From contig JAKJER010000003.1 of NCBI GenBank assembly GCA_022705325.1, positions 181,419-245,418 on the forward strand: DNA of 64,000 nt, read 5' to 3'. Shown piece by piece: positions 49 through 60,300 of the stretch. This stretch comes from Planctomycetota bacterium. Lineage in GTDB: Bacteria > Planctomycetota > Phycisphaerae > SM23-33. The translations under genes and the position numbers were made by a program. Positions within the stretch are counted from its first letter, which is position 1; each line of letters starts with the position of its first letter. The notes below the pieces were generated by a model. That model ran no database searches and was not told where the DNA came from. It worked only from the letters and a program-made list of their open reading frames with translations.

Positions 49-3198
<3,150 letters not shown>

Positions 3199-40470: not shown

Positions 40471-40499
40471 TGCAAGTTCAGCCAATATAGCGACTTGCA
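40471..40499 (+). promoter_or_regulatory. Inverted repeat / hairpin immediately upstream of the gspE start
   Basis: tgcaagt (40471-40477) and acttgca (40493-40499) form a perfect 7-bp inverted repeat with an AT-rich 15-nt spacer (tcagccaatatagcg). The repeat ends 8 nt before ATG 40508 and overlaps the likely RBS. The octamer caatatag also occurs at 40380-40387. Confidence 0.3.
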
Positions 40500-40507
40500 G
40501 GATAGAC

Positions 40508-42184: not shown

Positions 42185-42402
42185 CAGAGCGCCGGCGGTC
42201 TTGCGTTGGTAACTGGAAGTTGGCAGCCTGGAGCGGTAGACAACCTCCGCGAACCTGCCTTGCGGGCCAAGCAGCCTGTGGGGCGTGAGGGACGGTTGGA
42301 TCGCTCGCATGGATTGGTTGACCCGCCTCTTGCCTTCGGCGGGCCCGAGGCCGCGAGGGGCCAAGAGACCGACGGACAGCGATCGACAGTCGAAGACCGA
42401 AC

Positions 42403-43605: not shown

Positions 43606-43741
43606 CCGCCCAGGGGCGAGAGAGGGTTTCGATGGAATTTCACGCCGACGCGCCAAGCAATTCGCCGCAGCAGCGTTAACCATATAACAGAAGTTGGGCG
43701 GCACCGAGGCCGCCGGACGCGAGACAGGAGAAAGGAACACA

Positions 43742-44209: not shown

Positions 44210-45029
44210 CCTCGCAACGGCTGGCAATAGACAGGAGCGGCGCCGGACGCGTCTGCAGGCTTCGGCGCCGTCTCTTTGCGCTGCGCACCGGGGCCGAGGC
44301 GGCTTCACGCTCATAGAGACCTTCGTCACCCTTGTCCTGCTGAGCCTGCTGGGCGGACTGGTTATCGTCAACTTCCATTCCTGGCGGCGGGGCTACAACC
44401 TGGAGGAAGGCGCCCTCCAGGTGGAGACGCTTCTGCGCCTGACGCGAGCCGAGGCTGCACGCGTGGGCCTTCGCTTCCGCCTGCAGGCCGACGAGGAGAC
44501 CGGCACACTCCAGGTCCTCTACGAGCCCAAGCCTCTGGAAGAACCCGGGACCTTCGTCCCCTATCGCGACGCTTCGTGGGTCACCTACACCCCCGAGGCG
44601 ATGGTCCTCGTCAAACGTATCCGCCTGAGCGGCCCGGCGGCCTTCCGCACCATGAGTATTCAGCAGATCGAGGGCGGCGAGCAGAGCGAGTTCGAGCCGA
44701 TCACGCTCTACCCCGACGGCTCGTGTGACTCGGCCCTGATTGAGTTGGCCGACACGGAAGAACTCGAAGACGATCCGACACAAGCCCATCGCGCCTTGCT
44801 GATCCTGGACGGCGTGCACTGCGTGATCAATCCGCATTACATCACGCCGTCCCAATACGAAGAGTACAAGACGACCCCGTTCAACCCGGAGAATCCCAAG
44901 GCGGTCATCCCCCCGCCCCCAGAGGAAGAGGGCGAGGACCCGTACGCCCCGCCGCCGGAACCGCCCCCGCCGGGCAAGATCATCAACAAACCCTCCGGCA
45001 ACGGAAAGAACCCCAGCCTCATGGGGTAG
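44166..45029 (+). CDS. Minor pseudopilin (GspH-like), start uncertain
   Basis: The prepilin motif is RGRGG/FTLIETFVTLVLLSLLGGLVIV and a GspH-like region follows (NLEEGALQVETLLRLTRAEAARVG). No ATG, GTG or TTG lies between the gspG stop and the motif. The candidates are ATG 44166 (overlaps gspG, 42-aa leader) or CTG 44253. The C-terminus has a Pro-rich tail (PPPPEEEGEDPYAPPPEPPPPGK). Confidence 0.6.
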   Translation: MMCRPNPRAKTTRSSLATAGNRQERRRTRLQASAPSLCAAHRGRGGFTLIETFVTLVLLSLLGGLVIVNFHSWRRGYNLEEGALQVETLLRLTRAEAARVGLRFRLQADEETGTLQVLYEPKPLEEPGTFVPYRDASWVTYTPEAMVLVKRIRLSGPAAFRTMSIQQIEGGEQSEFEPITLYPDGSCDSALIELADTEELEDDPTQAHRALLILDGVHCVINPHYITPSQYEEYKTTPFNPENPKAVIPPPPEEEGEDPYAPPPEPPPPGKIINKPSGNGKNPSLMG

Positions 45030-45101
45030 TCGCAGGCATGCCGCACTCCCTGGACCGCAGACCCATGCAGCAACCGGCAAGAAAGGAATCGCACAAGTCC
45101 G

Positions 45102-45593
45102 ATGGCTCCCCTGGCTGACAGCTTCGGTGCCTGGTCGGCGAGTCGGCGCGGCGGCATCCTGTTGGAGGTCGTCCTGGCGATGGTGCTGTTCTTCTCGGCC
45201 GGGGCGGTCATTCTGGCCGGGCTGGGCAGCGCCGTGCGCGGCATGGAGCAGCTTCGCCTGGACGCCCAGGCGGCCGACCTGGCTGTCACGCTGCTTTCGC
45301 GCCTGCAGATCGGCGACCTGGAACTGACCGACGCCGGGCCCACCGAGTTCGAACCCATTGAGGGCCCCGAGCAGGAACTGGAAGGCTGGACGTGGCAGGT
45401 GATCACCACCGAGATGCAGGACACCATCGATGCCGGCGGGCCCACGGGCAAACTCGTCCAGGTGATCGTGAAGAACGAACAGAAAGGATACTCCTACCGC
45501 CTTTCGCAGTGGTTGGCCACCGATGAGTCGGGCCAGGTGGTGACCGCCGCGACCCAACCCGCCGCCAGCGCCAGCGAGGAGGACCTGCCATGA
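45102..45593 (+). CDS. Minor pseudopilin (GspI-like) with atypical cleavage motif
   Basis: 163 aa. The motif SRRGG/ILLEVVLAMVLFFSAGAVIL has Ile instead of Phe at +1 but retains Glu at +5. Size and position fit GspI. Confidence 0.55.
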   Translation: MAPLADSFGAWSASRRGGILLEVVLAMVLFFSAGAVILAGLGSAVRGMEQLRLDAQAADLAVTLLSRLQIGDLELTDAGPTEFEPIEGPEQELEGWTWQVITTEMQDTIDAGGPTGKLVQVIVKNEQKGYSYRLSQWLATDESGQVVTAATQPAASASEEDLP

Positions 45594-46303
45594 AGCGGGG
45601 CGGCTTCACACTCTTCGAGGCCCTGTTGGCCATTGGATTGTCCATCGGCATCGTCGGCGGGACGATGGCCCTGTACCAGCAGGCCGTCATGATCCGCCAA
45701 CGCATCAGCGAGGACCTCGAGGTCCTGACGGCCGAGCGGATCATCATGGACCGCATGACGCAAGAGATGCGTGCCGCGATCGTCTACCCGTTCCTTGGCT
45801 TTGGCCTGGAAGGCCAGGCCGACAGCATCACGTTCATGACCGCGACCGTCCCGGGCCCGGCTGCCTGGGCGGTTCGATCAGGATCCGAAGACCCCGTCCC
45901 ACCGGAGACGGACCTGCAACTGGTGACGTATCGCATGCGAACGTACGAGGATGACTACGGCATGCTCCAGGTCGCGGGGATCGAGCGAAGCTGCCAGCGG
46001 ATCCTGTCCTCCCCCACCGCCCAGGAAGGGGCCGACGTGTCCACCGTCCTGCTGACCCCCTACATTCAGCACATGCAGTTCGCCTTCTTTGACGGATCAG
46101 GCTGGACCAACATCTGGCAGGACAAGGGGCTCCCCCTGGCCGTCGAGGTGACGATGGGTTTCCCGCCCCTGCCCGAAGAGGTCGAGGCCCAGGATTATCC
46201 CTACCCGGTCTTTCGGCGCATGATCTACCTGCCCGGCGCGACCACCTCGCTCCAGGGCCCGCTCATCCGCGGGCTGGGCGGACGGAGAGGAGGGGGACGA
46301 TGA
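45590..46303 (+). CDS. Minor pseudopilin (GspJ-like)
   Basis: 237 aa starting MKRGG/FTLFEALLAIGLSIGIV. The start overlaps the previous stop (ATGA at 45590-45593) and is preceded by GAGGAGGA. Confidence 0.6.
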   Translation: MKRGGFTLFEALLAIGLSIGIVGGTMALYQQAVMIRQRISEDLEVLTAERIIMDRMTQEMRAAIVYPFLGFGLEGQADSITFMTATVPGPAAWAVRSGSEDPVPPETDLQLVTYRMRTYEDDYGMLQVAGIERSCQRILSSPTAQEGADVSTVLLTPYIQHMQFAFFDGSGWTNIWQDKGLPLAVEVTMGFPPLPEEVEAQDYPYPVFRRMIYLPGATTSLQGPLIRGLGGRRGGGR

Positions 46304-46324
46304 TGATTGCTGATTACGGATCGC

Positions 46325-46376
46325 GGATTGCCGATTGCAGACGATTGACGATTGTCGATTGTCGATTCTCGACTCG
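46325..46376. repeat. Degenerate heptamer tandem array (CGATTGN) in the gspJ-like / gspK spacer
   Basis: The units are ggattgc cgattgc (aga) cgattga cgattgt cgattgt cgattct cgactcg. This AT-richer patch lies in the 158-nt spacer. A direct decamer repeat ccgcagtccg (46436-46445 and 46451-46460) follows just before ATG 46462. Confidence 0.7.
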
Positions 46377-46461
46377 TCCTCGGTGTCCCAGCGTCCAGTC
46401 GCGAGTTGGGAATCGAAGATCGCATACGGAGAATTCCGCAGTCCGTGATCCGCAGTCCGCA

Positions 46462-47865
46462 ATGGCGAAGGGCACGATCCTGGTGGCGGTGCTCGTCGTG
46501 ACGGCCCTGGCGTCGATGGTGGCGGTGACGGCAATGTACCGCATGCACAGCGAAAGCGCCGCTTGCGCCGCCAGCACCCTCAACGAGCAGGCGCACGCCG
46601 CGGCCATGAGCGGCATCGCCCGCGTGACCGCACTGCTGCGCGTCGTTCGCGAGAGCGGGATCGATCTGTACGACAACCCCGGCCTGCTTCGCACCCAACT
46701 CGTCTGCGACGACGGCATTAACAAGTGGTACTTCACCATCTACGCGGGGGTTGACGCCCCGGGCTTCGGCGGCTCGACATTCGACTCCGCCGGGGACGCC
46801 AAGGTCCGCTACGGCGTGATCGACGAGGCCGCCAAGATCAACATCAACTTCGCCACGCCCGAGTCGCTGCTGGCCCTGCCCGGCATGAACGAGGAACTGG
46901 CCGACTGCCTTGTCGACTTCCGCGACCGCGACAACGAACCCCTGCCTAACGGCGCCGAGCAGGAATACTACGACCAACTCCCCCGTCCTTACAAAGCCAA
47001 GAACGGGTTCTTCTTCACCCTGGAAGAGACGCTGCTGGTCAAGGGCTTCAACGGATCGATCCTGTACGGCGAAGACGCCAACCTCAACGGGATGCTCGAG
47101 CCGAACGAGGACGACGGGGACGCGACCTTCCCGGCCGACGACTCGGACGGGCAACTCAATCCCGGCCTGCGCGGGCTGGCCACCACGCTGACCTACGAAC
47201 CCGACGTCGACAACGAGGGCCAGGCCCGCACCAACCTCAATACGGCCGTCCGCTCCGTCGAGGGCCTCGACCCGCGCACAACGGCGTTCATCCAGGCGTA
47301 CCTGGCCGACAAGAACGTCTTCACGCATCCGAGTCAACTGCTGAACATGGAGTACCGTCTGAAAGCGGACCAGCCGACCAAGGCCGGCCAAACGGGCCGA
47401 AAGGCCGGCGAGGTCATCTACTCCTACGTAGACGCCTCGACGCTGCCGCTGGTGCTGGATCGCCTGACAACCAATCCTTCCAAGATGCCCCTTTTCGGGC
47501 TGCTCAACGTGAACAGCGCACCGGCGGGCGCGCTAGCCGCCGTGCCGGGCATGGACGCCGACCTGGCGCGGCGGATCGTGGACGCTCGGGCTTCCATCGC
47601 CCCCGAAGCCCGCGCCACGACGGCGTGGCTGTTCACCGAGGGACTGATGGATGCCGATCGCTTCAAGCAGGTCGCCCCCCGGCTGACCGCACGCACCTTC
47701 CAGTACCGCGTCCAATGCGTGGGCTTCGGCTGGCCTTGCGGGCGGTATCGGGTCATCGAGGCCGTGGTGGACCTGGCCGGCGGGACGCCGAGACTGCTGT
47801 ACATGCGCGACCTGACGCGCATGGGAGTCCCCCTGCCGCTGAACGTGGACTCGGGCGAAGGATGA
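46462..47865 (+). CDS. gspK: Minor pseudopilin GspK
   Basis: 467 aa from ATG 46462. The hydrophobic N-terminus MAKGTILVAVLVVTALASMV lacks Glu+5, as is typical for GspK. GspK blocks are present (RYGVIDEAAKININFATPESLLALPGMNEELADCLVDFRD, EEYYDQLPRPYKAKNGFFFTLEETLLVKGF) along with a second HhH-like segment (LLNVNSAPAGALAAVPGMDADLARRIVDAR). Confidence 0.8.
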   Translation: MAKGTILVAVLVVTALASMVAVTAMYRMHSESAACAASTLNEQAHAAAMSGIARVTALLRVVRESGIDLYDNPGLLRTQLVCDDGINKWYFTIYAGVDAPGFGGSTFDSAGDAKVRYGVIDEAAKININFATPESLLALPGMNEELADCLVDFRDRDNEPLPNGAEQEYYDQLPRPYKAKNGFFFTLEETLLVKGFNGSILYGEDANLNGMLEPNEDDGDATFPADDSDGQLNPGLRGLATTLTYEPDVDNEGQARTNLNTAVRSVEGLDPRTTAFIQAYLADKNVFTHPSQLLNMEYRLKADQPTKAGQTGRKAGEVIYSYVDASTLPLVLDRLTTNPSKMPLFGLLNVNSAPAGALAAVPGMDADLARRIVDARASIAPEARATTAWLFTEGLMDADRFKQVAPRLTARTFQYRVQCVGFGWPCGRYRVIEAVVDLAGGTPRLLYMRDLTRMGVPLPLNVDSGEG

Positions 47866-48070
47866 TCGCGGATGCAGGAGACACAAGCGAAGAAAGGCCC
47901 GGCGCAGCAGGCGGCGGAGCGACGCAGTTCAGATGGCACATGGGAGCCCTTGCTGCTTTGCGGAACCGCCCCGAGGCGATTGTGTCTCTTTGAGGCCCTA
48001 AGACGTCGAATTTCCTTCCCGGTCCTGCGTTTAACTTGAACAGGATGCGCATGGACGCTGGAGATCGAGA

Positions 48071-50029
48071 ATGTCGGTTCTGTCGGGCGTGAAAAAGCTG
48101 GTGTCCGGTTTGCCGAGGCGGTTCACCGCGGTGGACTTCGACTCGCGCCAGATGCGCATCGTCCACGCCGAGCACGTGGGTGGGCGCATGCGGGTGCTCA
48201 AGCTGCATCAACTGGCCATGCCGCCGGAAACGGACCTGTCCAACGCCCAGTTGGTCGGACAGGTCCTGGGCAAGGGCATCCGCGATCTGGGGCTGTCCGG
48301 AACGGGCGTGCTGATGAATGTGCCCCGCGGACAGGCGGTGCTCAAGCCCCTCACGCTCCCCGCGCAGACTCCGCGACAGGAACTGCCAGCCATGGTCCAG
48401 TTCCAGATGGAGAAGGAACTCCCCTTCCGCCCCGAGGAAGCGGTTATCGACTTCACCATGGCTGAGCATTTCGACGCGGTCGCCAGCGCCGAACTCAGCG
48501 CCGCCGGCGCGGGCGTCAGCCTGTTGGTGTCGGCGGTGCGCCTGCCTGTCGTCGACTACTATCGCCGCGTCGCCGAAGCCGCGGGAGTCAAGCTCGCTCG
48601 CCTGGGGCTGAGACCCTACGCCAGCATTCAGTGCGTCGATGCCTGCACCCTGCGGGCGGAGAGCGAGACGGTCGCCATCGTCCACGTCACCCCGGACGAG
48701 ACGGAGATCAACGTCCTCCTGGGCGGGGGCCTGACGTTCAGCCGCTCGGCCGTCGTCACCGTCCTGCCCCCCAAGACCGGCAGCGACCCGGCGGTCAAGG
48801 AGACCGTAGACGCTCTGGCCACCGAGGTCGCCCGGAGCCTCCAGAGCTACCAGGCTGTCCAGGGCGGCAAGAAGGTCGACGCCATCCTCGTCGCCGGCGG
48901 GACGGGCATCGAGTCGCGGCTGGCCAGCCACCTGGCGCAGCGCCTGCTGACCAAGTGCGAGATATTCCACCCCGGCCCGGCCCTCGGCGTGCACAGCGAT
49001 GCGCCGGAGACCTCCGCCTTCATTGCGGCCCTTGGGCTGGCCGTCGGGCACTGCAGCAAGATCCTGCCTTTCGACTTCCTCGCCCCCAAGCGCCCCGTGG
49101 TCCGGCGCGATCTCAAGAAGATCCGCCGCATCGCCGCCCTGGCGATGGCCGGCGTTGTCCTCCTGGGCGCCGGCATCGCCTTCACCGCTCACCTCCAGGC
49201 CAAGCGGACCGTCCTGCAGAACCTTCGCAACAAGGTTGCCTCCGCACAGAAGGAGAACAAGGACGTCAAGGCCCTGCAGAAGCGGGTGAAGGCTTTCGAC
49301 ACGTGGCTGTCCGACAGCCGCAACTGGCTCGATCACTGGACCTATCTCAGTTGTCTCTTCCCGCCCTGCCAAGACGCTTATATCTCCGACTTCCGCGTCA
49401 ACCGCAGCGATGGCTCGATCAGCTTCATCGTCAAGGCCCGTGAGGCCGAAATCATCACCGACCTCGGAAAACGCCTCACCGAAGCCGGCTACGAGTTCCG
49501 CGCCGGGCGCGAGACCGCCACCGAGCAGGACCGTTACGGGTACCTCCACGCCGCCGACATGAAGGTGATCCTCCCGCCGAACCTGGAGATGAACCTGGCC
49601 AACATGGAGAAGCCCAAGCGCCCGGTCGACGACTCTTCCCTGGAGGACTTTCTCCGGCCCGGCTACAAGCCTGTGGGTTCGCCGAACCTGCGTCCGCCTG
49701 AAGGCTCCCCCCCCTCCGCCTCCGGCCCGGCGCCCTCGTCGTTGCCATCGTCACCGGAAGCGCCCGAGGCGCCCGCAGCTCCGACGGCGGCATCGCCTCC
49801 TCCTCAGCCCGCCGACGGATACATCGGAACCGACGGCAAGACCTACACGGGCCGGCTCGCCGTCGACCGCAAGCAGCACGAGAAGACGACGGAGCTGTAT
49901 TGGCAGAAGAAGGTGCGAGACCGCGAGAGAGAGAGCCAGCGAGAGGTCGAGAAGAAACGCGAGTTGGAGAAGGCGCGCGAGCGGGAACGCGAACGACGCT
50001 CCAGCCGCCGGGGGGACGGCAATGAATAA
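48071..50029 (+). CDS. PilM-like / PilN-like fusion protein (GspL-analogous assembly-platform component)
   Basis: 652 aa with GGAG 8 nt upstream. The N-terminal ~330 aa resemble the PilM/GspL actin-like cytoplasmic domain (VDFDSRQMRIVHAE, MVQFQMEKELPF, VAIVHVTPDETEINVLLGG, AILVAGGTG). One TM helix (IAALAMAGVVLLGAGIAFTA) and a PilN-like coiled-coil/periplasmic part follow. The protein ends in a Pro-rich segment and an Arg/Glu-rich tail (RDRERESQREVEKKRELEKARERERERR). Confidence 0.65.
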   Translation: MSVLSGVKKLVSGLPRRFTAVDFDSRQMRIVHAEHVGGRMRVLKLHQLAMPPETDLSNAQLVGQVLGKGIRDLGLSGTGVLMNVPRGQAVLKPLTLPAQTPRQELPAMVQFQMEKELPFRPEEAVIDFTMAEHFDAVASAELSAAGAGVSLLVSAVRLPVVDYYRRVAEAAGVKLARLGLRPYASIQCVDACTLRAESETVAIVHVTPDETEINVLLGGGLTFSRSAVVTVLPPKTGSDPAVKETVDALATEVARSLQSYQAVQGGKKVDAILVAGGTGIESRLASHLAQRLLTKCEIFHPGPALGVHSDAPETSAFIAALGLAVGHCSKILPFDFLAPKRPVVRRDLKKIRRIAALAMAGVVLLGAGIAFTAHLQAKRTVLQNLRNKVASAQKENKDVKALQKRVKAFDTWLSDSRNWLDHWTYLSCLFPPCQDAYISDFRVNRSDGSISFIVKAREAEIITDLGKRLTEAGYEFRAGRETATEQDRYGYLHAADMKVILPPNLEMNLANMEKPKRPVDDSSLEDFLRPGYKPVGSPNLRPPEGSPPSASGPAPSSLPSSPEAPEAPAAPTAASPPPQPADGYIGTDGKTYTGRLAVDRKQHEKTTELYWQKKVRDRERESQREVEKKRELEKARERERERRSSRRGDGNE

Positions 50030-51098
50030 GCGCGAGAAGACGATGGCTGGCCTGACCGCCGCCATGGCGGGGATCTTCCTGGGTTTCCTGACGATCAACG
50101 GCTTCGTGCTCAAACCGCTGCAGAAGATGGATGTCGACGCCCAGAAGCTCAGCGGGCAACTGGCGAGCTTGCAGCGAGAGAATGCAGCCCGCAAGAGCCT
50201 CGAGCCGCGTCTCAAGGAGTTGGTGTCGCGCTGCTTCGGCGGCGACGAACTCAAGGCGGGCGAGGAACTGCGGGCCCGGCTGGTGACGCTGATGGACCAG
50301 GCGGGGCTGTCCACCGAGAAGCGTCTGCTGAACCCGGTCACCGGACAGTCGGTCAGTGGCGCGTACAAGGAGATCGGACGGCGGGTACAGGTCAGCGGGA
50401 AGCTCGGCAACGCCGTCGACTTCCTCTATTTGCTCAATGCAGAGCCGCACCTGCACCGCCTGGACTCGCTCAGCCTCACACCCGCCCAGGGAGGCACCGT
50501 GGAGTTGAACCTGACCTACTCCACGCTCGTGCCAGCGGAGGGCTTGCCAGCCTCCAAGGACATCAAGCCGCTTCCCACGCAGCCCGCGCCCAACCTGCGA
50601 GAAGGCGAGCGGACACTGTACGATCCGATCGCGTCGCGAGATCTTCTGCGCCCGTACATCAAGCGCCCCCCGCCGCCTCCCCCGGTGCCGCAGCCCGTGC
50701 CCGCTGTTGCACGCCGCCATGATCCGCCCCCACCGCCTCCCCCGCCGCCAAAGACCAGCAGCGAGGGACGCTATCGCCTGGTCCTCATGCCGATGGCGCC
50801 GGGAGAGCCGTTCTCCGTGCTGGACCAGAGCACGCGCCAGACCTACTCCTACAACATCGGGCAGTTCCTGGGCGGCGGAAAGGTCGTCATGGTCGACTTC
50901 CGCCCCTGTCCCCTCCCGGACGACCCCGACACGATCTCGCCCAGCAGGCTCATTCTCCAGATCGGCGACGCCTACTGGGCCGTCGAGTATGGACAGACCC
51001 TCTCGGCCAAGCGACAATTGCGGAAGGATGAATTGCCTCCTGAATTGTCTGGCGCCGCAGCAGCGCCGGCCAGTCAACCGGCCTCGCCAGCCTCCTGA
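50022..51098 (+). CDS. PilO/GspM-like protein with C-terminal PilP/GspC-HR-like domain
   Basis: 358 aa, with an 8-nt overlap with the previous gene. It has an N-terminal TM (LTAAMAGIFLGFLTINGFVL), a coiled coil and a PilO-like domain (VSGKLGNAVDFLYLLNAEPHLHRLDSLSLTP). A Pro-rich linker (PPPPPPVPQPVP...PPPPPPPPK) follows. The last part is a ~90-aa beta-rich domain (YRLVLMPMAPGEPFSVLDQSTRQTYSYNIGQFLGGGKVVMVDF...LILQIGDAYWAVEYGQTL). Domain calls are by pattern only. Confidence 0.55.
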   Translation: MNKREKTMAGLTAAMAGIFLGFLTINGFVLKPLQKMDVDAQKLSGQLASLQRENAARKSLEPRLKELVSRCFGGDELKAGEELRARLVTLMDQAGLSTEKRLLNPVTGQSVSGAYKEIGRRVQVSGKLGNAVDFLYLLNAEPHLHRLDSLSLTPAQGGTVELNLTYSTLVPAEGLPASKDIKPLPTQPAPNLREGERTLYDPIASRDLLRPYIKRPPPPPPVPQPVPAVARRHDPPPPPPPPPKTSSEGRYRLVLMPMAPGEPFSVLDQSTRQTYSYNIGQFLGGGKVVMVDFRPCPLPDDPDTISPSRLILQIGDAYWAVEYGQTLSAKRQLRKDELPPELSGAAAAPASQPASPAS

Positions 51099-51336: not shown

Positions 51337-51350
51337 CAGGAGATCAGACG

Positions 51351-54300
51351 ATGCGAACTAACTGGATACTGGCTTTCGCGGTTATCTCCGCCCTTGCCGT
51401 GGCCCTGACTGCCCAGACGACCAAACCGTCGCCGCAGCCGGCCACCCAGCCAGCCGCCGCACCGACCACCCAGCCCGCCGTCGCTGCCGCGCCGACCACC
51501 AAGCCGGCCGTTGCCGCTGCGCCGACTACCCAGCCCGCCGTCGCTGCCGCACCGACCACCAAGCCGGCCGTTGTCGCTGCGCCGACTACCCAGCCCGCCG
51601 TCGCTGCCGCACCGACCACCAAGCCGGCCGTTGCCGCTGCGCCGACCACCCAGCCCGCCGTCGCTGCCGCACCGACCACCAAGCCGGCCGTTGCCGCTGC
51701 GCCGACCACCAAGCCCGCCGTCGCTGCCGCGCCGACCACCAAGCCGGCCGTTGCCGCTGCGCCGACCACCCAGCCCGCCGTCGCTGCCGCGCCGACTGTG
51801 AGACCGGCCGGGACGTACAGTAAGGACTCACCCAAGATCTTCCTCTTCCAGTTTAGCGGCTGTCCGTATCATGAGGTGATTCGCAAGTTCGCCCAGGCCT
51901 GTAAGAAACCGTTGTTGGGGGAAGTCGAGATTCCGGGCAGTCTCACGTTCTTCGACAGCGAACCTTACTGCTACGAAGAAGCCCTGGACACCCTCAACAT
52001 CCTCTTGAACATGCGGGGCTTCGCCCTGATCGAGTTCAAGCGGTATCTCCGCGTGGTGCAGGTAACCGAACTGGCCAACAACGCGAGCATCCTCCGCGGA
52101 CTGGACCAGGTCGGGGACATCCGGAACGAGCAGGTCGTCACCGTCTTGCTTCCGGTGGAGAATCTCGATCCGGAGGCCGCCTCCAAAGCCATCGTCCGCA
52201 TGGTGTCTTCGTACGGCTCGATCACTCCCATGCCTCGAGGCAAGGGTGTTCTCATCACCGACCGTCTGTCCAGCGTTCGCCGCATTCAGGACATGATCCA
52301 GATGCTGGACGCCGAGCGGGCGACCGCCAGCGACATCAAGACCATCCAGATCAAGAAGGCTTCGGCCAAGTCCGTCGCTTCGGTCATCAATCAGGTCCTG
52401 GGCGGTCCGTCTTCCAGCCCCGAACGCAGGTCGTCATCGGCTCCGCCGGCCTCTTCGGGTGACAGCGTGTCAGCCTACAGCGATGACCGCACCAATCTCC
52501 TGTTCCTGCGCGGTGTGGGCGCCAAGCTGCAACTGGCCGAGCAACTCGTGGAGAAGTTGGACAGCGAAGCGACCAGCGATGTCAGCGACATGCGCCTGAT
52601 CGAGTTGAAGAACGCCCGCGCCGAGGACGTAGCCAAGACCATCAGCGAAGTCATGCCCCGCGACCAGATCCAGGTGGCGGGCCCGCCCAGCAGCGACTCC
52701 AGCCGACGCCACTATCCCGTCACCGTGGCCAAGGGCAAGGTCGTCGCCGAGCCGGAGACCAACCGCCTGATCGTCTCCGCTCCGCTGGACGTGATGGTCA
52801 AGATCGAGGAACTGATCAAGAAGCTCGACGTGGCCAGCGACACCAGCGGCGGGGTCAAGGTCCTGCGTCTCAAGACCGCCGACGCCGCCCAGCTTGCCCC
52901 TATTGTCTCGGCCGCGGTGGCCAAGCAAACCCTCGCCGCTGGCGGGGCGAGAAGGGGAATGGTCACTGTCACCGCAGACAGCCGCACGAATTCTCTGGTG
53001 ATCGTGGGCCCGGCCGGCGACATCCAGGCAGCCGAGAAGCTCGTCGCCGAACTCGACCGCCCGCTGGACAAGGAAGAGGAACGCCAGATCCGCATCATCC
53101 AGTTACCCTCGGGCAACGCCGAGAAGCTGGCCAGTGCCATCTCCCGCGTGCTGGACAGCTCCCCGTCTTCGCATTACGGCTCCAGCCGCTATGGGTCGTC
53201 CTCGTCCCGCTCCCAGACCAGCCGCCCGCGTATCGAGGCCGACTCCGGCACCAACAGTCTGCTGATCTCGGCTGCCCCAAGCGACTGGCCGCAGATCGAA
53301 TCCATCCTGAAGCAGATCATTCCGCCCCCACCGCCTGACCAGCCCGCGGCCGCCACGCCGCTGGCCTTGACGACTCCGGTGCTGCGCCACGTGCCGCTCA
53401 AGTTCGCCAAGGCGGAGGATCTCGCCACCACGCTGCTGTCCGTGTTCGGCACGCGCCGGCGCAGCGAGGCCGTTTCCATCATCATCACCCCGTCGGCCCG
53501 CACCAACAGTCTGCTCATCTCGGCCGCCGAACCCGACCAGATCGCCATGGGGGAGTTGATCAAGACTCTCGACGTCGACTCCAGCGAGAAGCTCGACCCG
53601 GTCCGCATCGTCGAACTGAAGGTGGCTGACGCCGCCAAGGTCGCCGACGCCATCCAGGCCGTCCTGCCCCCGCGCCCCGTCGGGCGACGCGGCGAGACCC
53701 ACCAGGTCACCATCCACGCCGACACCGCCACCAACACCCTCTTTATCCGCGCCGGCGAGGCCGAGCAGAAGCTCATCGACGAGGTTATAGCCCGGATGGA
53801 CAAGGGCGCAATCGACCCCACCATTGTCCGCGAGACGCGAATCATCGCCCTCAAGTTCGTCCCTGCCAGCCAGATGGCGGCCAGTGTCCAGCAGTTCTTC
53901 CAGTCGGCCGGCGGCTCGCCCTCCAGCCCATACGGCTCGTCGTATTATCGCCGCCGGAGCTACTCCTCCGCCTCCGGAGAAAAGGCCTTCGATTCGCTGG
54001 TCGTCGCCGCCGCACCGGGAGACCAGGCCCTCATCGTGGAAGGACCCAAGAAGAAGGTCGACGAGGTCGCCGCCTTCGTCGCCAAACTCGACACCCAGGA
54101 CACCGGCCAGGCGACAATTGTCCGCGTCTATACCCTCAAGGAAGCCGACGCCGGCGAAATCTCCCGGACCCTGTCGGCCACTTTCTCCAAGAAGTGGCAG
54201 GACCAGAAGCGACGCGATCCGAAGCTGGCCGACCCCGAGCCGTCGTTTGAAATCAACGCCGGCGCCAACCAGCTCATCATCGCCGCCACCGAGAAGCAGC

Positions 54301-57300
54301 TTACCGAGATAGACGCGTTGATCGCCCAACTCGAGAAGGCCCCGGCTGTGACCAGCCAGACCAAGACCTTCCCCCTCAAGCACGCCAAGGCCGAGGAACT
54401 GGTCAACGTCCTCCAGACGATGCTGACCTCAGGCGCTCCCAGCCCCTACAGCGGCTATGCGTACAGTCGGCGATCCAGAAGCGTCGAGGGCGAGTTGAAG
54501 ATCGCCGCCATCGCCGCCTCCAATTCGCTGGTCATCCAGGGCCCGCCAGCCAAGATGGCCAAGGCCGAGCAACTCATCGCCTCCTTCGACACGCCCCAGG
54601 CGGGCGAGTCCTCGCTGATCAGCATCGTGCCGCTCAAGGCCGCCTCCGCCTCCCAACTCGCGGTCACCCTCAAGAACATGCTGCCTCCCCAGAGTCGAGA
54701 GCGAGAAAGCGAGTTGGTCATTCAGGCGGACACGGCGAGCAACTCCCTGCTCATCCGCGCCAGCGCCACGCAGCGAAAGATCATCGACGAACTGATCCCC
54801 AAGCTCGACGTCGAGTTGGCCGAAGGCACCCGCGAGATGCGGGTCGTGCCCGTAATGTTCGTCTCGGCCTCTCAGATCGCCCAGACCGTGTCGCAGGTCT
54901 TCCGCGGCCAGAACGGGACATCTTCGTCGTCTTCCTCCTATCGACGATCGTACTATCGGTCGTACGACGCCCCGCAGGCGGGTCCGGGCAGCGACGAGAT
55001 TCTTATCACGCCCGCCCCCAACGACCGCAGCATCGTCATCGAAGCCCCCAAGAAGAAGATCGAGCCGATTGTTCAGCTCATCGCAACCCTTGACGTTGCC
55101 GAAGGCACCGCCAAGGCCAACCAGATCCGCACCTACCAGCTCAAGAACGCCAACGCAGCCGAAGTTTCCCGCGTTCTTTCGGGCATGTACACCCAGCGAA
55201 CCAGCGGATACGGCGAGGCCCCTTCCGCGCGAGGCGGCTCGGGCCCGACCGCCACCCCGCCCAAGTTCGACCACGACACCGCGACCAATCAGCTCGTCGT
55301 CTCGGCCAGCGACGAACAGTTCGTCGAGATCGACGCACTGATCAAGAAGCTGGAAGAGGCGCCCCAACTGGCCACCCAGACCAAGACCTTCCCGCTCAAG
55401 CACGTGCGGGCGAGCGAGGTCCTGCCGGTGCTGACCAACCTGCTGAGCGAAACGCCCGCCTCCACCCCCGAGGGCTACGCGGGCTACTCGCCCTACTCCT
55501 CCCGTCGGCGCTACGGAGCGTCTGCGTCGTCGGAGCTTCGCCTGGCCGCCCTCCCCGGCGCCAATAGCATCGTCGCCCAGGGCCCGCCGCCCAAGATGCT
55601 CAAGGTCGAGCAACTCATCGCTTCCTTCGACACGCCCCAGGCGGGCGAGTCCTCGCTGATCACGATGGTGCCGCTGAAGAACGCCTCGGCCGCCAAACTC
55701 GCCGAGACCCTCAAGTCCATGCTGCCCGCCGCCTCGCGAGACAAGCCAAGCGAACTGGTCGTCCAGGCCGACACCGCGACCAACTCTCTGCTCATCCGCG
55801 CCGACGGCACCCAGCGGAAGATGCTCGACGAGTTGATCCTCAAACTCGACGTCGAGGTCGTCCAGACCGCCCGCGAAATGCGGGTCGTTCCGGTGCAGTT
55901 CGTCTCCGCCGCCCAGATCGCCCAGACCGTCTCCCAAGTCTTCCTGAAACAGGACGCTTCGTCGTCCTCCTACCGGCGATCCTCGTACTACTACCGCTCG
56001 TATTACCGCTCCTACGACGAGCCCGAAGAACCCACCCGCACCGGCGCGGATGCCGACAAGATCGTCGTGACGGCCTCCCCCAACGACCGCTCCGTCATCG
56101 TCGAGGCCCCCAAGCTGAAGATCGAGCCTGTCGTTCAGCTCATCACGACCCTGGACGTGCCCGAGGGCACGGCCAAGCCCCAGCAGATCCGCACCTACCA
56201 GCTCAAGAACGCCAACGCAGCTGAAACCGCCCGCATCCTGAGCAATATGTACGCCCAGCGTCAGAACGGCAGCGTCAGCAGCTACGGCGAGGAAGGCAGT
56301 CCAAGCCGGACCGCCAAGTCGAAGATCCCCGCGCCGAAGTTCGACCACGACGCCGGATCCAATCAGCTTGTCATCTCGGCCAACGACGAGCAGTTCGTCG
56401 AAATCGAAGCCCTGATCAAGACGCTGGATGAGACGCCCCAACTGGCCACGCAGACCAAGACGTTCCCGCTCAAGCACGCCAGGGCCAGCGAGATCGTCCC
56501 GCTGCTGACCAGCCTGTTGAGCGACACGCCCTCGTCCCCGGCGGTCGGCAGCTACTCGCGGTATTCATCGCGAAGTCGCTACGGCGCGTCGGCGACCGCC
56601 GGAGAGGTCCACGTCGCCACCCTGCCCGGGACCAACTCTGTGATTGTGCAGGGCCCGCCGGCCAAACTCACCCAGGCCGAGCAGTTGATCTCCACGTTCG
56701 ACACGCCCGAAGCGGGCGGCTCGTCGCTGGTGACGGTGATCCCGCTCAAGAACGCCTCGGCCGTCACGCTCGCCGAGACGTTGCGGAGCATGCTGCCCCC
56801 GCCCGTGCGGGGAAGGCCCGAGGAGATCGTCATCCAGGCCGACAGCCTGACCAACTCGCTGTTGGTCCGAGCTCCCGAAGACCAGCGCAAGACTATCGAC
56901 GACCTCATCGCCAAGCTCGACGGCGGCCTGGCCGATAATGCCCAGACCCGCGAGATGCGGATCATCCCGGTCAAGCACCTGTCGGCCGCCCAACTCGCAG
57001 AGACCGTCAGCGTCATGTACCAGCAACTCCGCGAGGCCCGGCGCGGGCTCCGCGCCCGTCCCGTTGACCCGGGCGAGCAGGTCGTCATCACCCCCTCTCC
57101 CAATGACCGCTCGATCGTCGTCGAAGCCCCCAAGAAGAAGGTAGAGGAGATCGCCAAGCTGGTGGCCGATCTGGACACCGAGGAGAACAGCTTCCAGATC
57201 CTCGTGCGGACCTACCAGCTCAAGACCGCCAGTGCATCGGAGCTGGCCCGTTCCCTGACCAACATCTTCGCCGCCAAAGTCGCCGGCTCCGCCTCGCCCG

Positions 57301-60300
57301 GCCGGCGCCCCGGCGCCGTGCCCAATCGCGCCGGTCCGCAGCCCACCTTCGACGTCGACGCCGCCAGCAACCAACTCCTGGTCGCCGCCACGTCTGAACA
57401 ACTCATCGAGATCGAGCAGCTCATCCAGAAGATGGACAATCCGGAGGTGCAGGCCGTCCAGACCCGCATCTTCCCCATCCAGCACGCCAAGGCCGACGAG
57501 CTGGTCACTCTCCTTCAGACGATGCTGAATGAGAATCCCCCCTCGGCCGCCTACGGCAGCTCGGCGTACTACTCGCGACGCTACCGCCCGACCGGGTCGT
57601 CCAGTGGAGACGACATCCGCATTTCCACGCTGCCCGGCACGAACAGCATTGTCGTCCAGGGGCCGCCCAACAAGCTTACGCGGGCCGAACAGCTCATCAA
57701 GAGCTTTGACACGCCCGAGGCGGCCGTCGCCGCCACCGTCACCATCATCCCCATCAAGAACGCCTCCGCGGCCACCCTGGTCGAGACCCTGCGGGCCATG
57801 CTCCCGCCGGTCAAGGGTCGGGCCGAGGAAGTGTTCATCCAGGCCGACATCCTGACCAACTCCGTGCTCATCCGCGCTCCCGAGACCCAACGGAAAATGG
57901 TCACCGAGTTGGTCGCCAAGCTGGACACCCAGAGCGAGCTTACCCGCGAGATGCGCGTTATCCCGCTCACCTTCACCAGCGCCACCCAACTCGCCAGCGC
58001 CCTGCAGGTCATGTACCAGCAGCACATGGCCACCCGGGGCGGCCCGCGGGCCAAGCCGGTGGACCCGGCCGAGCAGGTCATCTTCACCCCCGCGCCGCAC
58101 GACCAGGCCCTGGTCGTCGAGGCGCCCAAGAAGAAGATGGAGGAGATCGCCGCCCTCATCGAGAAGCTGGACGTCCAGGAAAGCCCCGACCGCCTCACGG
58201 TACGCACCTACCAGTTGGCCGAGAACTCCGACGCGGTCGAGACCGCCCGTACGCTGGCCAAGCTCTTTACCGAGACCCGCGTTCGCCCGGGCGCGATCGC
58301 GGGCAATCAACAGCAGCCCCGCTTCGAGGCCGACGGAGTGGGCAACCAGCTCATCATCGCCGCCACGCCCAAGCAGTTCGAGGAGATCGAGCCGCTGCTG
58401 AAGAAGCTCCAGGACTCCGCCCAGCTTGCCGTGCGAAGCAAAACCTACCAGCTCAAGTTCGCCAAGGCCGCCGACATCGTCCAGATGCTCCAGTCCATGC
58501 TGACCGGGACCACCGGCCGGTCGCGGTACTCCGCCTATGGGGACCCGGCCGCCGCGTCGAGCGAGGTCCGTGTCGCTGCCGTCAACGGCAGCAACAGTGT
58601 CTTCGTCCAGGGGCCGCCGGCCAAGCTGGCCATGGCCGACGAACTGATCCGCACCTTCGACACCGAGCAGGCGGCTGCCCGCAGCGTGATTCAGATCATC
58701 AAGCTCAAGAACGCCCAGGCGGCCTCGCTGGCCCAGGCCGTCAACGCCACGCTGGAGGCCCGGGCCGCCCGCCGTCCTTACGGCGAGCAGGCCGGCGCCG
58801 ACGACGGAAAGGTCACCGTCACGCCCGAGCCCAACTCCAACAGCCTTCTGGTCCGCGGGCCGCTGGCCGAGATTCCCTCCGTGCTGGAGATGATCCGCGA
58901 CCTGGATGAGGGCGGGACGAGCGCCAAGAGCGAAGTCCGCATCTTCCCGATCAAGAACTCCGACGCATACGAGCTTTCGACAACCCTGGGCAGACTGGTG
59001 CAGGACATGATCGCCCAGCAGACGCGCGCTCGCGGCGACGTGCCCGTGCCGGCCTTCAGCATCGCCGCCGACACCCGCACCAACTCGCTCATCGTCTCCA
59101 CCACCTCCGCCTACTTCGCCATCGTCGAGCAACTCCTGGAGAACCTCGACAAGGAACAGCCCATCCGCGACGTTCAGTACATCGCTCTGACCAACGCCCA
59201 AGCCGTCGACGTAGCCGAGAAGGTCAACGCCCTCTTCACCGACCGCAAAGGGTCCGACAAGCCTGTCATCGAGGCGGAGGAGTACACCAATTCCCTCACC
59301 GTCATCGCCAAGGCGGTGGACCTGCTGACGATCCAGGAAATGGTGGAGAAGCTCGACAAGGGACGGCGCGAACTTCAGGTCCGGGTCGTCCCCATCAAGC
59401 AGATCAAGGCCGAACGGATGGCCGAGATCATCCAGCGGGTATACGGGCAGACGACGAGCAGCCGTGTCATCGTCACCGGCCAGTCCCCCCCGACGCGGAT
59501 GGGGATCGAGTTGCCCGCCCCTCAACCGACGCCCGCTCCGCCCCCGCCGGCGGGCAAAGGCCCCGCCGCTTCGGCCAAGCCGTGGACCGGCAGCGTTCCT
59601 CGCCCGGCGACGCAGCCAGCCACCCGGCCCACCACGCGACCGGAGAGCGCCCCAGCCGCCAAGGACGATGGCGAGTTGGAGGAGAACCCTCCGATCACCA
59701 TCGCCATCGACCATAAGAGCAACACGCTGATCATCTCGGGCCCGCCCCAGGAGATCGACAACATCCAGGGCCTCATCGACCAGATGATGACCTCGCCCGA
59801 GGAGGCCGAGGCTGAGTTCCGGACCTATAGGATCGAGCACGCCGACCCGGTGGTTCTGGCCCAGACGCTGGAGGACATGTTCAACCCCAAGCCCAAGGTA
59901 GTCTACCTCCAAGCCCGTACCGGACAGCCGGCGCAGGCCCCGGCTGAACCGCCCCCGCCCATTACTGTACAGGCCGACGCCCGCACTCGCTCCATTGTCG
60001 TCCGGGCGAAAGTCATCGACTTCGACATGATCGAGCCGCTGATCAAGTACCTCGACCAGGAGACTTCCGCCCACAGCGAACTGCGCGTCTTCCCGCTGGA
60101 GAACACCGAGGCCGGCGAGGTCGCCGACAACCTCAAGGAGATGTTCAACCTGGCCCAGAAGGGGACCGCGGCCCAGCCCGCGCCCCAGCCTCAGGCCGGG
60201 CGCACGGCCCAGCGCGGCCGGGCCGACCGTGTCCGCCAGGTCATGGACCTGCAGGTCGCTGCCGGCGGCTCAGCCAAGGTCGATCCCTATTCGGCCATCT

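What the first reader, a model, noticed from the sequence alone, without database searches (positions are those of the whole stretch)
51459..51800. Perfectly in-frame 30-nt tandem repeat (11-12 copies) forming the N-terminal linker of the giant protein
The array (APTTQPAVAA/APTTKPAVAA)n lies directly after the signal peptide. The units are near-identical at DNA level, with a 60-nt higher-order alternation. Because the unit is a multiple of 3, copy-number change by slippage or recombination keeps the frame, so linker length could vary between strains or cells. Pro/Thr/Ala linkers are classical extended spacers and frequent O-glycosylation targets. The repeat also generates long spurious ORFs in other frames and on the other strand.
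Basis: seen in the sequence. Interest (0 to 1): 0.5.

Follow-up and report, generated by a model that had tools for sequence, protein, structure and literature searches.

The report
Repeat-encoded disordered tail on giant secretin
A real, in-frame 30/60-base tandem repeat encodes a floppy, roughly 140-residue Pro/Thr/Ala-rich tail at the start of a giant secretion-channel (secretin-like) protein of an anaerobic-digester planctomycete; related bacteria carry an equally variable tail at the same spot, so it is an ordinary, fast-evolving spacer, and its exact copy number is not independently confirmed.

Summary
Bases 51459-51788 hold 11 complete 30-nt units, with a degenerate 12th unit after them. 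They are in frame with an ORF that starts at ATG 51351 and stays open to the window end (more than 4216 aa). The true DNA period is 60 nt: a Q-type and a K-type unit alternate, giving 5.7 copies at 96% identity.

The protein has a signal peptide, then this tail (aa 22-163; AlphaFold pLDDT below 50, coil), then an N0-like domain and 46 Secretin_N repeats. It closes a type II secretion operon (GspE/F/G/J/K, a PilM-like gene and others).

In all 29 Phycisphaerae orthologues with a recognisable signal peptide, the same position holds an Ala/Pro-rich low-complexity segment of 24-181 aa. Its sequence and charge are not conserved. At least five orthologues carry their own recent in-frame tandem repeats. 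So this is a position-conserved, sequence-free, length-variable spacer or tail that grows by slippage or unequal recombination.

Two caveats apply:
- The signal peptide looks cleavable, so this is a free N-terminal tail rather than a linker between two domains.
- None of 9 other public assemblies of the same population spans the array (7 end at or in it, 1 has an N gap, 1 shows 3 units and looks like a collapse). Strain-level copy-number variation is therefore untested.

There is no evidence for glycosylation. The closest known analogue is the polymorphic N-terminal octapeptide repeat region of Neisseria PilQ.

The parts
51338..51342 (+). Shine-Dalgarno-like AGGAG, 8 nt upstream of the start codon
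   Evidence: Read directly from the sequence.
51351..51413 (+). Signal peptide (aa 1-21, MRTNWILAFAVISALAVALTA). It has a basic n-region, a 15-residue hydrophobic core and AVA/LTA small-residue motifs. There is no Cys, so it is not a lipoprotein.
   Evidence: Translation. AlphaFold predicts a helix at aa 3-17. Cleavage is inferred from the motif and was not tested.
51414..51458 (+). Degenerate leader of the repeat region (aa 22-36, QTTKPSPQPATQPAA)
   Evidence: TRF reports a 24-nt degenerate repeat at 51430-51489.
51459..51788 (+). Tandem array of 11 complete 30-nt units (10 aa each), organised as 5.5 copies of a 60-nt Q-type/K-type higher-order unit. It encodes aa 37-146, with composition A 39%, P 20%, T 20%, V 11%, K 5% and Q 5%.
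51789..51839 (+). Degenerate 12th unit and junction (aa 147-163, APTVRPAGTYSKDSPKI), ending the disordered tail
   Evidence: pLDDT is below 50 up to aa 158.
51840..52085 (+). N0-like domain (about aa 164-245)
   Evidence: Pfam PF21305 scores 22.4 bits, E 1.1e-4 (below the gathering score of 27). All 6 of 6 aligned family members hit it, best E 9.2e-8. The AlphaFold pLDDT 10-residue block means across aa 161-240 are 81-91.
51351..64000 (+). Giant secretin-like ORF, open to the window end (more than 4216 aa), with 46 Secretin_N stretches. No C-terminal secretin domain lies inside the window.
40409..51098 (+). Upstream type II secretion operon: GspE 40409-42184, GspF 42403-43605, pseudopilins (G/J/K-like) 43995-47865, PilM/GspL-like 48071-50029, and a 358-aa TM + poly-Pro protein 50022-51098
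   Evidence: Pfam scans, called genes in L001/L045, translations.
51344..51835 (-). Spurious 163-aa ORF created by the repeat on the opposite strand. Two more spurious ORFs lie at 51511-51801 (+) and 51586-51831 (-).

Best explanation
The array is a coding, in-frame minisatellite. Its 60-nt unit (two diverged 30-nt subunits) was recently amplified by replication slippage or unequal recombination.

It makes up most of an intrinsically disordered Pro/Thr/Ala-rich segment of about 142 residues (aa 22-163). This segment sits between the cleavable Sec signal peptide and the N0 domain of a giant, multi-Secretin_N, GspD-like protein encoded at the end of a type II secretion operon of a Phycisphaerae-class planctomycete (MAG 'Planctomycetes bacterium ADurb.Bin126').

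**Shown:**
- The repeat anatomy, the reading frame and the domain order.
- The disorder prediction.
- Orthologues always carry an Ala/Pro-rich low-complexity segment at the same position. Neither its sequence, nor its charge, nor its length is conserved, and it has repeatedly been rebuilt by lineage-specific in-frame tandem duplications.

**Inferred:**
- What is selected is a physical property rather than a binding motif: an extended, flexible periplasmic tail or spacer at the base of each secretin subunit, with a contour length of roughly 45-50 nm.
- Its length is easily tuned in 20-aa steps.
- After signal-peptide cleavage it is a free N-terminal tail rather than a tether.
- It may help the N0 ring find or keep its distance from the inner-membrane platform. 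The neighbouring GspL-like and 358-aa proteins also carry long Pro-rich segments.
For: - **Repeat and frame:**
- **Recombination register:** exact matches reach 63 nt at offset 60 but only 17 nt at offset 30.
- **Constraint on the peptide:** Q-type and K-type units differ at 5 nt, of which 4 are synonymous (P about 0.035 under random change). This is a weak sign of constraint on the peptide.
- **Protein identity:** 46 Secretin_N stretches and an N0-like hit. A T2SS operon lies immediately upstream.
- **Disorder:** aa 18-158 have pLDDT below 50 and no secondary structure, whereas N0 and N1 are confidently folded.
- **Comparative evidence:** 36 orthologous loci come from Phycisphaerae/Planctomycetota MAGs. 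In all 29 with a recognisable signal peptide, the segment between signal peptide and N0 is 24-181 aa and A/P-rich, with K, E or T. Recent DNA-level repeats, all with periods that are multiples of 3, occur in L010 (96 nt x3.1, 96%), L015 (39 nt x3.9, 94%), L029 (108 nt x2.1, 99%), L037 (30 nt x5.1, 98%) and L042 (63 nt x2.8, 94%).
- **Protein homologues:** P0001, P0002, P0003 and P0006 show the same pattern.
- **Faster evolution of the array:** L001 differs from the window at 3 positions within 205 nt of array. It has only 1 difference in 11.5 kb upstream and none in the last 9.1 kb compared.
- **Neighbouring proteins:** Pro-rich segments in the GspL-like and 358-aa proteins.
Against: - No experiment or read-level data exist.
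- The functional step (spacer or entropic tail) is inference from composition and conservation of position only.
- A free tail has nothing to 'space' unless it binds a partner or the signal peptide is retained.
- One homologue (P0005) has almost no tail (about 10 aa), so the segment may be dispensable.
- The copy number of 11 is seen only in this assembly. Seven other assemblies end at or in the array, one has a 100-N gap and one has 3 units.
- The C-terminal secretin pore domain of the giant protein was not seen. It lies beyond the window, if it exists.
Confidence: 0.6

Rival explanations
1. Neutral low-complexity expansion. The segment after the signal peptide is simply a permissive site where slippage-prone GC-rich sequence accumulates and turns over. 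The tail has no function of its own.
For: No sequence, charge or length conservation among orthologues. One homologue has almost no tail (P0005). Array turnover is fast. Similar decapeptide Pro/Thr repeats occur in hundreds of unrelated proteins (342 hits; examples).
Against: A low-complexity A/P-rich segment of at least 24 aa is present in 29 of 29 orthologues that have diverged to about 45-55% identity in N0. Purely neutral inserts would be expected to be lost in many lineages. Four of 5 differences between the two subunits are synonymous.
Confidence: 0.25
2. The array is real, but its copy number or order in this window is an assembly product. The true allele, or the mixture of alleles, differs.
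For: Of 9 other assemblies of the same population (99.6-100% identical flanks), none spans 11 units. L002, L003, L005-L008 and L046 end at or in the array. L001 has 100 Ns inside it. L004 has 3 units. Two orthologous MAG loci (L020, L036) also have N gaps in their linkers.
Against: Marker substitutions make every stretch longer than 63 nt inside the array unique, so a k>=77 short-read assembly can thread it unambiguously. Units 1-7/8 are reproduced exactly by two JGI assemblies. L001's two sides already give at least 8.5 units. L004 also mis-threads a paralogous module at its contig end (18 clustered mismatches at 56849-57170), so its 3 units look like a collapse.
Confidence: 0.25
3. Sequence-specific module. 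The decapeptide P-T-T-(Q/K/R)-P-A-V-A is a functional motif associated with secretins, for example a site for O-glycosylation or for binding a wall or envelope component. It would not be a featureless spacer.
For: A sub-clade of orthologues shares the PTT(Q/K/R)PA core despite only about 52% identity in N0 (L011, L012, L014, L015, P0006). Three other secretins of a different type (P0055, P0056, P0123; PF00263-positive) carry C-terminal tails of the same decapeptide, with PTTKPAVA matching exactly.
Against: Most orthologues use quite different tails (AAEKAAA, KPEPKPEP, acidic EP-rich). The best global hits are a mixed bag of unrelated Pro/Thr-repeat proteins, and only 2 of the 150 listed hits (P0123, P0056) are secretins; P0055 came from a separate search. 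GC-rich codon bias favours A/P/T/Q-rich low complexity. No glycosylation data exist.
Confidence: 0.1
4. Signal-anchor tether. The N-terminal hydrophobic segment is not cleaved, and the tail ties the N0 ring to the inner membrane, doing the job of a TonB-like or GspC-like periplasm-spanning connector.
For: The composition resembles known periplasm-spanning rigid spacers, such as the TonB (EP)n(KP)n region (own knowledge). Orthologue L010 has a KPEPKPEP tail. No recognisable GspC gene is present in the operon.
Against: The hydrophobic core is only about 15 residues and is followed by AVA/LTA motifs. Nearly all orthologues show canonical AXA-like cleavage motifs. The 358-aa neighbour already has a TM segment plus a poly-Pro linker plus a C-terminal domain that could connect to the secretin.
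Confidence: 0.07

Closest known systems
Neisseria PilQ N-terminal 'small basic repeats' (octapeptide PAKQQAAA)
   Same: Both are short in-frame tandem repeats, rich in Ala/Pro/Gln/Lys, in the N-terminal periplasmic part of a secretin. In Neisseria the copy number is polymorphic: 4-7 copies in N. meningitidis and 2-3 in N. gonorrhoeae (PMC3031610; PMC2884949, citing Tonjum et al. 1998).
   Different: The unit here is 10 aa (20 aa at the DNA level) against 8 aa. It is Thr-rich and only weakly basic (net +9 over 142 aa). The host is a giant T2SS-type protein rather than a T4P PilQ. Charge is not conserved among orthologues (some are strongly acidic), so the DNA-binding role proposed for the SBR region (PMC2884949) is unlikely. 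Strain polymorphism is not demonstrated here.
TonB proline-rich (Glu-Pro)n(Lys-Pro)n periplasmic spacer, and Ala-Pro hinges of OmpA / E2 acyltransferase linkers (own knowledge)
   Same: Pro-rich, low-complexity, extended segments of envelope proteins. Length rather than sequence matters. Orthologue L010 carries a TonB-like KPEPKPEP repeat at this position.
   Different: Those segments connect two anchored or folded parts. Here the N-terminal end is probably free after signal-peptide cleavage. There is no sequence homology.
Pro/Thr 'PT-box' linkers of secreted carbohydrate-active enzymes (e.g. Cellulomonas fimi cellulases; own knowledge)
   Same: Pro/Thr-rich tandem decapeptide-like repeats that are disordered and extended. 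A global hit, P0206, carries (APTTQPATTA)x5 as an interdomain linker.
   Different: PT-boxes join a catalytic domain to a binding module and are often O-glycosylated in actinobacteria. Here no upstream domain exists and no glycosylation evidence is available.
Liposecretins such as Pseudomonas HxcQ (lipidated N-terminus plus extension, self-piloting; PMC3542185 citing Viarre et al. 2009)
   Same: A secretin with an N-terminal extension preceding N0.
   Different: The window protein has no lipobox Cys. Only some homologues (P0001/L012, P0008) have an IAAC-like motif, and a close relative (L015) lacks it.

Membership tests
Secretin superfamily (GspD/PilQ-type) | Sec signal peptide at the N-terminus | tested here: met
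   aa 1-21 have a basic n-region, a hydrophobic core and small residues at -3/-1. AlphaFold predicts a helix at aa 3-17. This is a motif-level test only.
Secretin superfamily (GspD/PilQ-type) | N0 domain | tested here: inconclusive
   PF21305 scores 22.4 bits, below the gathering score of 27. However, 6 of 6 aligned orthologues hit it (best E 9.2e-8), and the region is confidently folded (10-residue block mean pLDDT 81-91 across aa 161-240). No fold search was run.
Secretin superfamily (GspD/PilQ-type) | Secretin_N (N1-N3 type) ring-building domains | tested here: met
   PF03958, 46 stretches, 1520.8 bits.
Secretin superfamily (GspD/PilQ-type) | C-terminal secretin pore domain (PF00263) | not testable with these tools
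   None is present within the 4216 aa in the window. The ORF runs off the window and off the L001 contig. A search with the last 616 aa found only a partial 30%-identical homologue. The orthologue fragments contain none within about 1150 aa.
Secretin superfamily (GspD/PilQ-type) | Encoded with T2SS/T4P assembly genes | tested here: met
   GspE, GspF, pseudopilins G/J/K and a PilM-like gene lie directly upstream on the same strand.
Liposecretin | Lipobox with an invariant Cys at the signal-peptide cleavage site | tested here: not met
   No Cys in aa 1-40.
Neisseria-type polymorphic secretin repeat region (SBR) | Short in-frame tandem repeats in the N-terminal region of a secretin | tested here: met
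Neisseria-type polymorphic secretin repeat region (SBR) | Copy number differs between strains | tested here: inconclusive
   Nine other assemblies of the same population: 7 end at or in the array, 1 has an N gap, and 1 has 3 units but is probably collapsed. Variation between species is clear.
Neisseria-type polymorphic secretin repeat region (SBR) | Sequence homology to, or basic character of, the PAKQQAAA unit | tested here: not met
   The unit is different (APTT[QK]PAVAA) and only 6 Lys occur in 110 aa. Several orthologue tails are acidic.
Interdomain Pro/Thr linker (PT-box), O-glycosylated | Joins two folded domains | tested here: not met
   Only the signal peptide lies upstream.
Interdomain Pro/Thr linker (PT-box), O-glycosylated | O-glycosylation of Thr/Ser | not testable with these tools
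   Requires glycoproteomics.
Contingency locus / phase-variable simple-sequence repeat | Repeat-number change switches expression on or off (frame or promoter spacing) | tested here: not met
   Units of 30/60 nt preserve the frame. The array is inside the ORF, 108 nt after the start codon.

The most novel reading that the evidence does not exclude
The decapeptide P-T-T-(Q/K/R)-P-A-V-A is not just filler. It would be a portable, secretin-associated repeat module in planctomycete-like bacteria, appended to the N-terminus of giant T2SS-type secretins and to the C-terminus of CpaC-type and other secretins (P0055, P0056, P0123). Possible specific roles include a glycosylated or wall-engaging stalk whose copy number sets the reach of the channel within an unusually wide periplasm.
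Probability: 0.1. Interest if true: 0.55.

Novelty: new member of a known kind. Interest (0 to 1): 0.3.

Why it matters
Taken alone, this is a routine example of how low-complexity spacers in envelope proteins evolve by in-frame tandem duplication. It has three practical consequences:

- It is a recurrent breakpoint for short-read assemblies of this gene. Public MAGs truncate or mis-start the secretin here: the NCBI gene model in L001 begins after the N gap and so loses the signal peptide.
- The comparative pattern is a tail that is always present, never conserved, 24-181 aa long and repeatedly rebuilt. This marks a defined clade of Phycisphaerae giant multi-Secretin_N proteins and suggests that the length of a disordered N-terminal tail is a tunable parameter of this unusual machine.
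- The array is a convenient strain marker (VNTR) for this digester organism, if long reads confirm variation.

The host protein is the more remarkable object. It has 46 or more Secretin_N domains and no pore domain seen so far.

Tried and rejected
- **Metagenome DNA scans.** Two exact-pattern scans of metagenome contigs were run to find array-spanning or 3'-side contigs, one for the 3' junction and one for the K-unit junction. Both returned nothing, although JGI contigs with the 5' side exist.
- **More array-spanning assemblies.** Looking these up through the GspF gene with 10-kb flanks gave only one more contig, which ends about 50 nt before the array.
- **Word-indexed protein search with aa 1-200.** It did not return the protein's own fragments. 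It returned only two CpaC-like secretin tails.
- **Search with the last 616 aa of the window ORF.** This aimed to find the full-length protein and its C-terminal domain. It gave one partial 30%-identical hit.
- **phmmer of the repeat region against 1.84 billion representatives.** Most hits are unrelated 10-aa-period Pro/Thr repeats (CAZyme linkers, transporters, eukaryote-like proteins). Only P0123 and P0056 among the 150 listed hits are secretins (P0056's remnant). Taken alone, this is too thin to claim a secretin-specific module.
- **Literature searches.** Searches for giant or planctomycete secretins found nothing relevant.
- **Lipoprotein or liposecretin reading.** Rejected, because there is no Cys.
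- **Phase-variation (on/off) reading.** Rejected, because every unit preserves the frame.
- **Downstream start codon (as in the NCBI model of L001).** Rejected, because it is caused by the N gap and would remove the only signal peptide.
- **HxcQ paper (PMC2797151).** Not held.
Full report

Yes. Tandem Repeats Finder reports two overlapping arrays. One lies at 51456-51796 (period 30, 11.4 copies, 80% matches, score 458). The other lies at 51453-51796 (period 60, 5.7 copies, 96% matches, score 625).

Reading the region codon by codon from ATG 51351 gives 11 complete decapeptide units at 51459-51788 (aa 37-146). Each is APTTQPAVAA or APTTKPAVAA, and one is APTTKPAVVA. A degenerate 12th unit (APTVRPAG) follows, and a degenerate leader, QTTKPSPQPATQPAA, precedes them.

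At the DNA level two unit types alternate:
- Q-type: GCGCCGACCACCCAGCCCGCCGTCGCTGCC
- K-type: GCGCCGACCACCAAGCCGGCCGTTGCCGCT

They differ at 5 of 30 positions. Individual units are 0-2 mismatches from their type. Unit 9 is a Q-type unit with a CAG-to-AAG change.

The spurious ORFs in other frames and on the other strand also exist: 51344-51835 (-), 51511-51801 (+) and 51586-51831 (-).

**2. What carries it?**

The ORF starts at ATG 51351, with an AGGAG 8 nt upstream. It remains open for 4216 codons to the end of the window.

Pfam finds 46 Secretin_N stretches (1520.8 bits) and a weak N0 hit at aa 174-234. The N0 assignment is stronger at family level. All six aligned orthologues hit PF21305 (best E 9.2e-8), and the window sequence scores 22.4 bits against a cut-off of 27.

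Directly upstream, on the same strand, lie these genes:
- GspE (40409-42184)
- GspF (42403-43605)
- G/J/K-type pseudopilins
- a PilM/GspL-like gene (48071-50029)
- a 358-aa protein with a TM segment and poly-Pro runs (50022-51098)

The array is thus the N-terminal part of a giant GspD-like protein that closes a type II secretion operon.

The 358-aa neighbour is identical to OQB85540.1 of 'Planctomycetes bacterium ADurb.Bin126' and to HOD82650.1 of a second MAG. No C-terminal secretin pore domain (PF00263) is present in the window, and I could not retrieve the rest of the protein.

**3. Structure of the segment.**

An AlphaFold model of aa 1-360, built with seven homologues, gives the following:
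- a signal-peptide helix at aa 3-17
- pLDDT below 50 and no secondary structure for aa 18-158
- confident N0 (about aa 164-245, 10-residue block mean pLDDT 81-91 across aa 161-240) and N1 domains

The array is 39% Ala, 20% Pro, 20% Thr, 11% Val, 5% Lys and 5% Gln. The whole tail (aa 22-163, 142 residues) has a net charge of +9. Fully extended, it would reach roughly 45-50 nm (inference from 0.31-0.36 nm per residue).

**4. Comparative evidence.**

The closest proteins in the 5.8-billion-protein collection are only 37-44% identical. They come from Phycisphaerae/Planctomycetes MAGs and are mostly contig-end fragments.

Those with an N-terminus show a low-complexity segment between the signal peptide and the conserved (I/V)RFQF start of N0:
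- P0001 has four copies of APTTQPAxKVAAK.
- P0006 has a degenerate APATQP/ATRP stretch.
- P0002 and P0003 have Pro/Ala-rich stretches of about 65-90 aa.
- P0005 has almost none.

A pattern scan of GTDB species representatives returned 36 orthologous loci, with 42-55% identity over N0/N1 (one outlier at 26%).

In all 29 loci where a signal peptide could be recognised, the intervening segment is 24-181 aa and dominated by Ala and Pro. The accompanying residues differ by lineage:
- Lys/Glu helical-spacer-like AAEKAAA in L009
- TonB-like KPEPKPEP in L010
- Thr/Gln/Lys PTTxPA in L011, L012, L014 and L015
- strongly acidic EP-rich in L025, L031 and L032

Recent DNA-level tandem repeats occur independently in L010 (96 nt x3.1, 96%), L015 (39 nt x3.9, 94%), L029 (108 nt x2.1, 99%), L037 (30 nt x5.1, 98%) and L042 (63 nt x2.8, 94%). 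Every period is a multiple of three. L020 and L036 have scaffold gaps in the same place.

The window's array is the largest of these. In 35 of 36 loci the ORF stays open for the full stretch fetched downstream of N0 (about 1150 aa in most loci, less where the contig ends) without a pore domain, so the whole clade is 'long'.

**5. Copy number and the assembly question.**

Nine other public assemblies carry this locus, with 99.6-100% identical flanks. None spans 11 units:
- L002, L003, L005, L006, L007 and L008 end inside the array.
- L046 ends about 50 nt before it.
- L001 (NCBI MAG GCA_035357775.1) has 100 Ns inside it. As a result, its gene model starts after the gap and lacks the signal peptide.
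- L004 (a k141 contig from ENA assembly ERZ27257425, probably MEGAHIT) has only three units.

L004 also shows 18 clustered mismatches at its contig end (56849-57170). That pattern is typical of threading into a paralogous Secretin_N module, so its short array is more likely a collapse than an allele.

Several points favour the window's version:
- Marker substitutions make the longest exact internal repeat only 63 nt, so a large-k short-read assembly can resolve it.
- L006 reproduces the window exactly through 51632, and L002 through 51670.
- The two sides of the gap in L001 already give at least 8.5 units.

The array does evolve faster than its surroundings. L001 differs from the window at 51611, 51671 and 51711, all inside the array. 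It differs at only one position in 11.5 kb upstream and at none in the last 9.1 kb compared.

The array is real and has at least 8 units. Eleven is plausible but rests on one assembly. Strain-level length variation is neither shown nor excluded.

**6. Mechanism.**

Exact identity between array positions reaches 63 nt at a 60-nt offset and 57 nt at 120 nt. It reaches only 17 nt at 30 nt and 14 nt at 90 nt. Slippage or unequal recombination should therefore add or remove 20-aa blocks, always in frame.

Shared markers trace earlier duplications of the 60-nt unit: ACT in units 3 and 5, and GCA in units 1, 4, 6 and 8.

Four of the five differences between the Q and K subunits are synonymous (P about 0.035). 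This hints weakly at constraint on the peptide.

Across orthologues, position and composition class are conserved, but sequence, charge and length are not. The most economical reading is a disordered periplasmic tail selected for a physical property such as reach, flexibility or excluded volume.

The signal peptides of the family show ordinary AXA-like cleavage motifs and cores of about 15 residues. The segment is therefore most likely a free N-terminal tail on each subunit at the base of the N0 ring, not a linker between two anchored parts.

The neighbouring GspL-like and 358-aa proteins also contain long Pro-rich stretches. This fits a machine built to bridge large periplasmic distances, but the link is inference.

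**7. A lead that cuts the other way.**

A search with aa 1-200 returned only two proteins. Both are CpaC-annotated secretin C-terminal fragments whose tails are degenerate decapeptide repeats of the same type (TPATQPAVAW, TPTTKPAVAI).

An exhaustive phmmer search with the repeat region found 342 proteins at E<=0.001. Most are unrelated 10-aa-period Pro/Thr repeats. Among the more similar ones is P0123, a complete 818-aa secretin (STN, Secretin_N and Secretin domains) with a C-terminal PTTRPAVA repeat tail.

Together with the PTT(Q/K/R)PA core shared by a sub-clade of orthologues, this leaves room for a motif-specific function. The numbers are small, though, and GC-rich codon bias is a sufficient alternative explanation.

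**8. Comparison with known systems.**

The closest documented analogue is the N-terminal 'small basic repeat' region of Neisseria PilQ. It consists of the octapeptide PAKQQAAA, with 4-7 copies in N. meningitidis and 2-3 in N. gonorrhoeae. It is described as a feature unique among secretins and has been linked to DNA binding (PMC3031610; PMC2884949, citing Tonjum et al. 1998).

The present case shares the location, the repeat nature and the Ala/Pro/Gln/Lys flavour. It does not share the unit, the strong basic charge or the demonstrated strain polymorphism.

Functionally it resembles Pro-rich envelope spacers (TonB, the OmpA hinge, E2 linkers) and PT-box linkers of secreted enzymes (own knowledge). 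It differs from them in probably having a free end.

It is not a liposecretin, because there is no Cys. It is not an on/off contingency locus, because the frame is always preserved.

**9. Verdict.**

It is ordinary in kind: an in-frame minisatellite encoding a disordered Ala/Pro/Thr tail.

What this analysis adds:
- the 60-nt register
- the family-wide pattern of a tail that is always present and never conserved
- the warning that the copy number is unverified and that the array breaks public assemblies and gene models
- the correction from 'linker' to 'free tail'

Glycosylation and strain-level variability remain untested. Interest is modest (0.3). The host protein is the more unusual object.

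Noticed in passing
window 51351-64000 (+): The host ORF has 46 Secretin_N stretches in 4216 aa and still has not reached a stop or a secretin pore domain (PF00263). In 35 of 36 orthologous loci the ORF is likewise open for the full stretch fetched past N0 (about 1150 aa in most) without a pore domain. A stack of that many ring-forming domains would be far longer than a normal periplasm.
   Followed up: partly
window 54504-56861: The giant ORF contains higher-order internal modules of about 1041 nt (about 347 aa, several Secretin_N domains) that are about 75% identical to each other (54504-55790 vs 55545-56861). Contig L004 appears to mis-thread into a paralogous module at 56849-57170.
   Followed up: partly
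window 50022-51098 (+): The 358-aa protein just upstream of the secretin has no Pfam hit. It shows a TM segment, a coiled/alpha-beta region, two poly-Pro runs (PPPPPPVPQPVP..., PPPPPPPPPK) and a C-terminal domain of about 100 aa. It could be a GspM/PilO-like protein fused to a GspC-HR/PilP-like secretin-binding domain. This was not tested.
   Followed up: no
window 48071-50029 (+): The PilM/GspL-like protein (652 aa) has a long Pro/Ser/Ala-rich segment near its C-terminus, followed by a highly charged Arg/Glu-rich tail (…EKKRELEKARERERERRSSRRGDGNE).
   Followed up: no
window 51956-51969: MAG contig L001 differs from the window by three SNPs within 14 nt inside the N0 domain. One changes Cys to Gly in the conserved PY(C/G/T)YEE motif (orthologues have Thr). 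The following 9.1 kb is identical. This looks like a small conversion or recombination tract, or a strain marker.
   Followed up: no
L001 11496-11595 (NCBI GCA_035357775.1, DAOPOD010000070.1): A 100-N scaffold gap sits inside the array. The deposited gene model therefore starts after the gap (locus 11596) and lacks the signal peptide and tail. This is an annotation artefact caused by the repeat.
   Followed up: yes
P0055, P0056, P0123 (proteins): Three other secretins (PF00263-positive; two annotated CpaC) carry C-terminal tails made of the same P(A/T)T(Q/K/R)PAVA decapeptide repeat. P0115, a TPR lipoprotein, carries APTTAPAIIAK repeats.
   Followed up: partly
L028 (CAYGZE010000098.1), upstream of locus position 3001: This orthologue has an extra, non-low-complexity insert of about 100 aa between the signal peptide and the Pro/Ala-rich tail (…LVLREDVEGSTIRVLPGTEIQIALGP…TWRYTLTVKV…). 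It looks like a small beta-rich domain.
   Followed up: no
window 59500-59700 (aa about 2740-2790 of the giant ORF): An internal Pro-rich linker (…PAPQPTPAPPPPAGKG…PRPATQPATRPTTRPESAPAAK…) reuses the ATQPA/TTRP motif and divides the Secretin_N array into two blocks.
   Followed up: no
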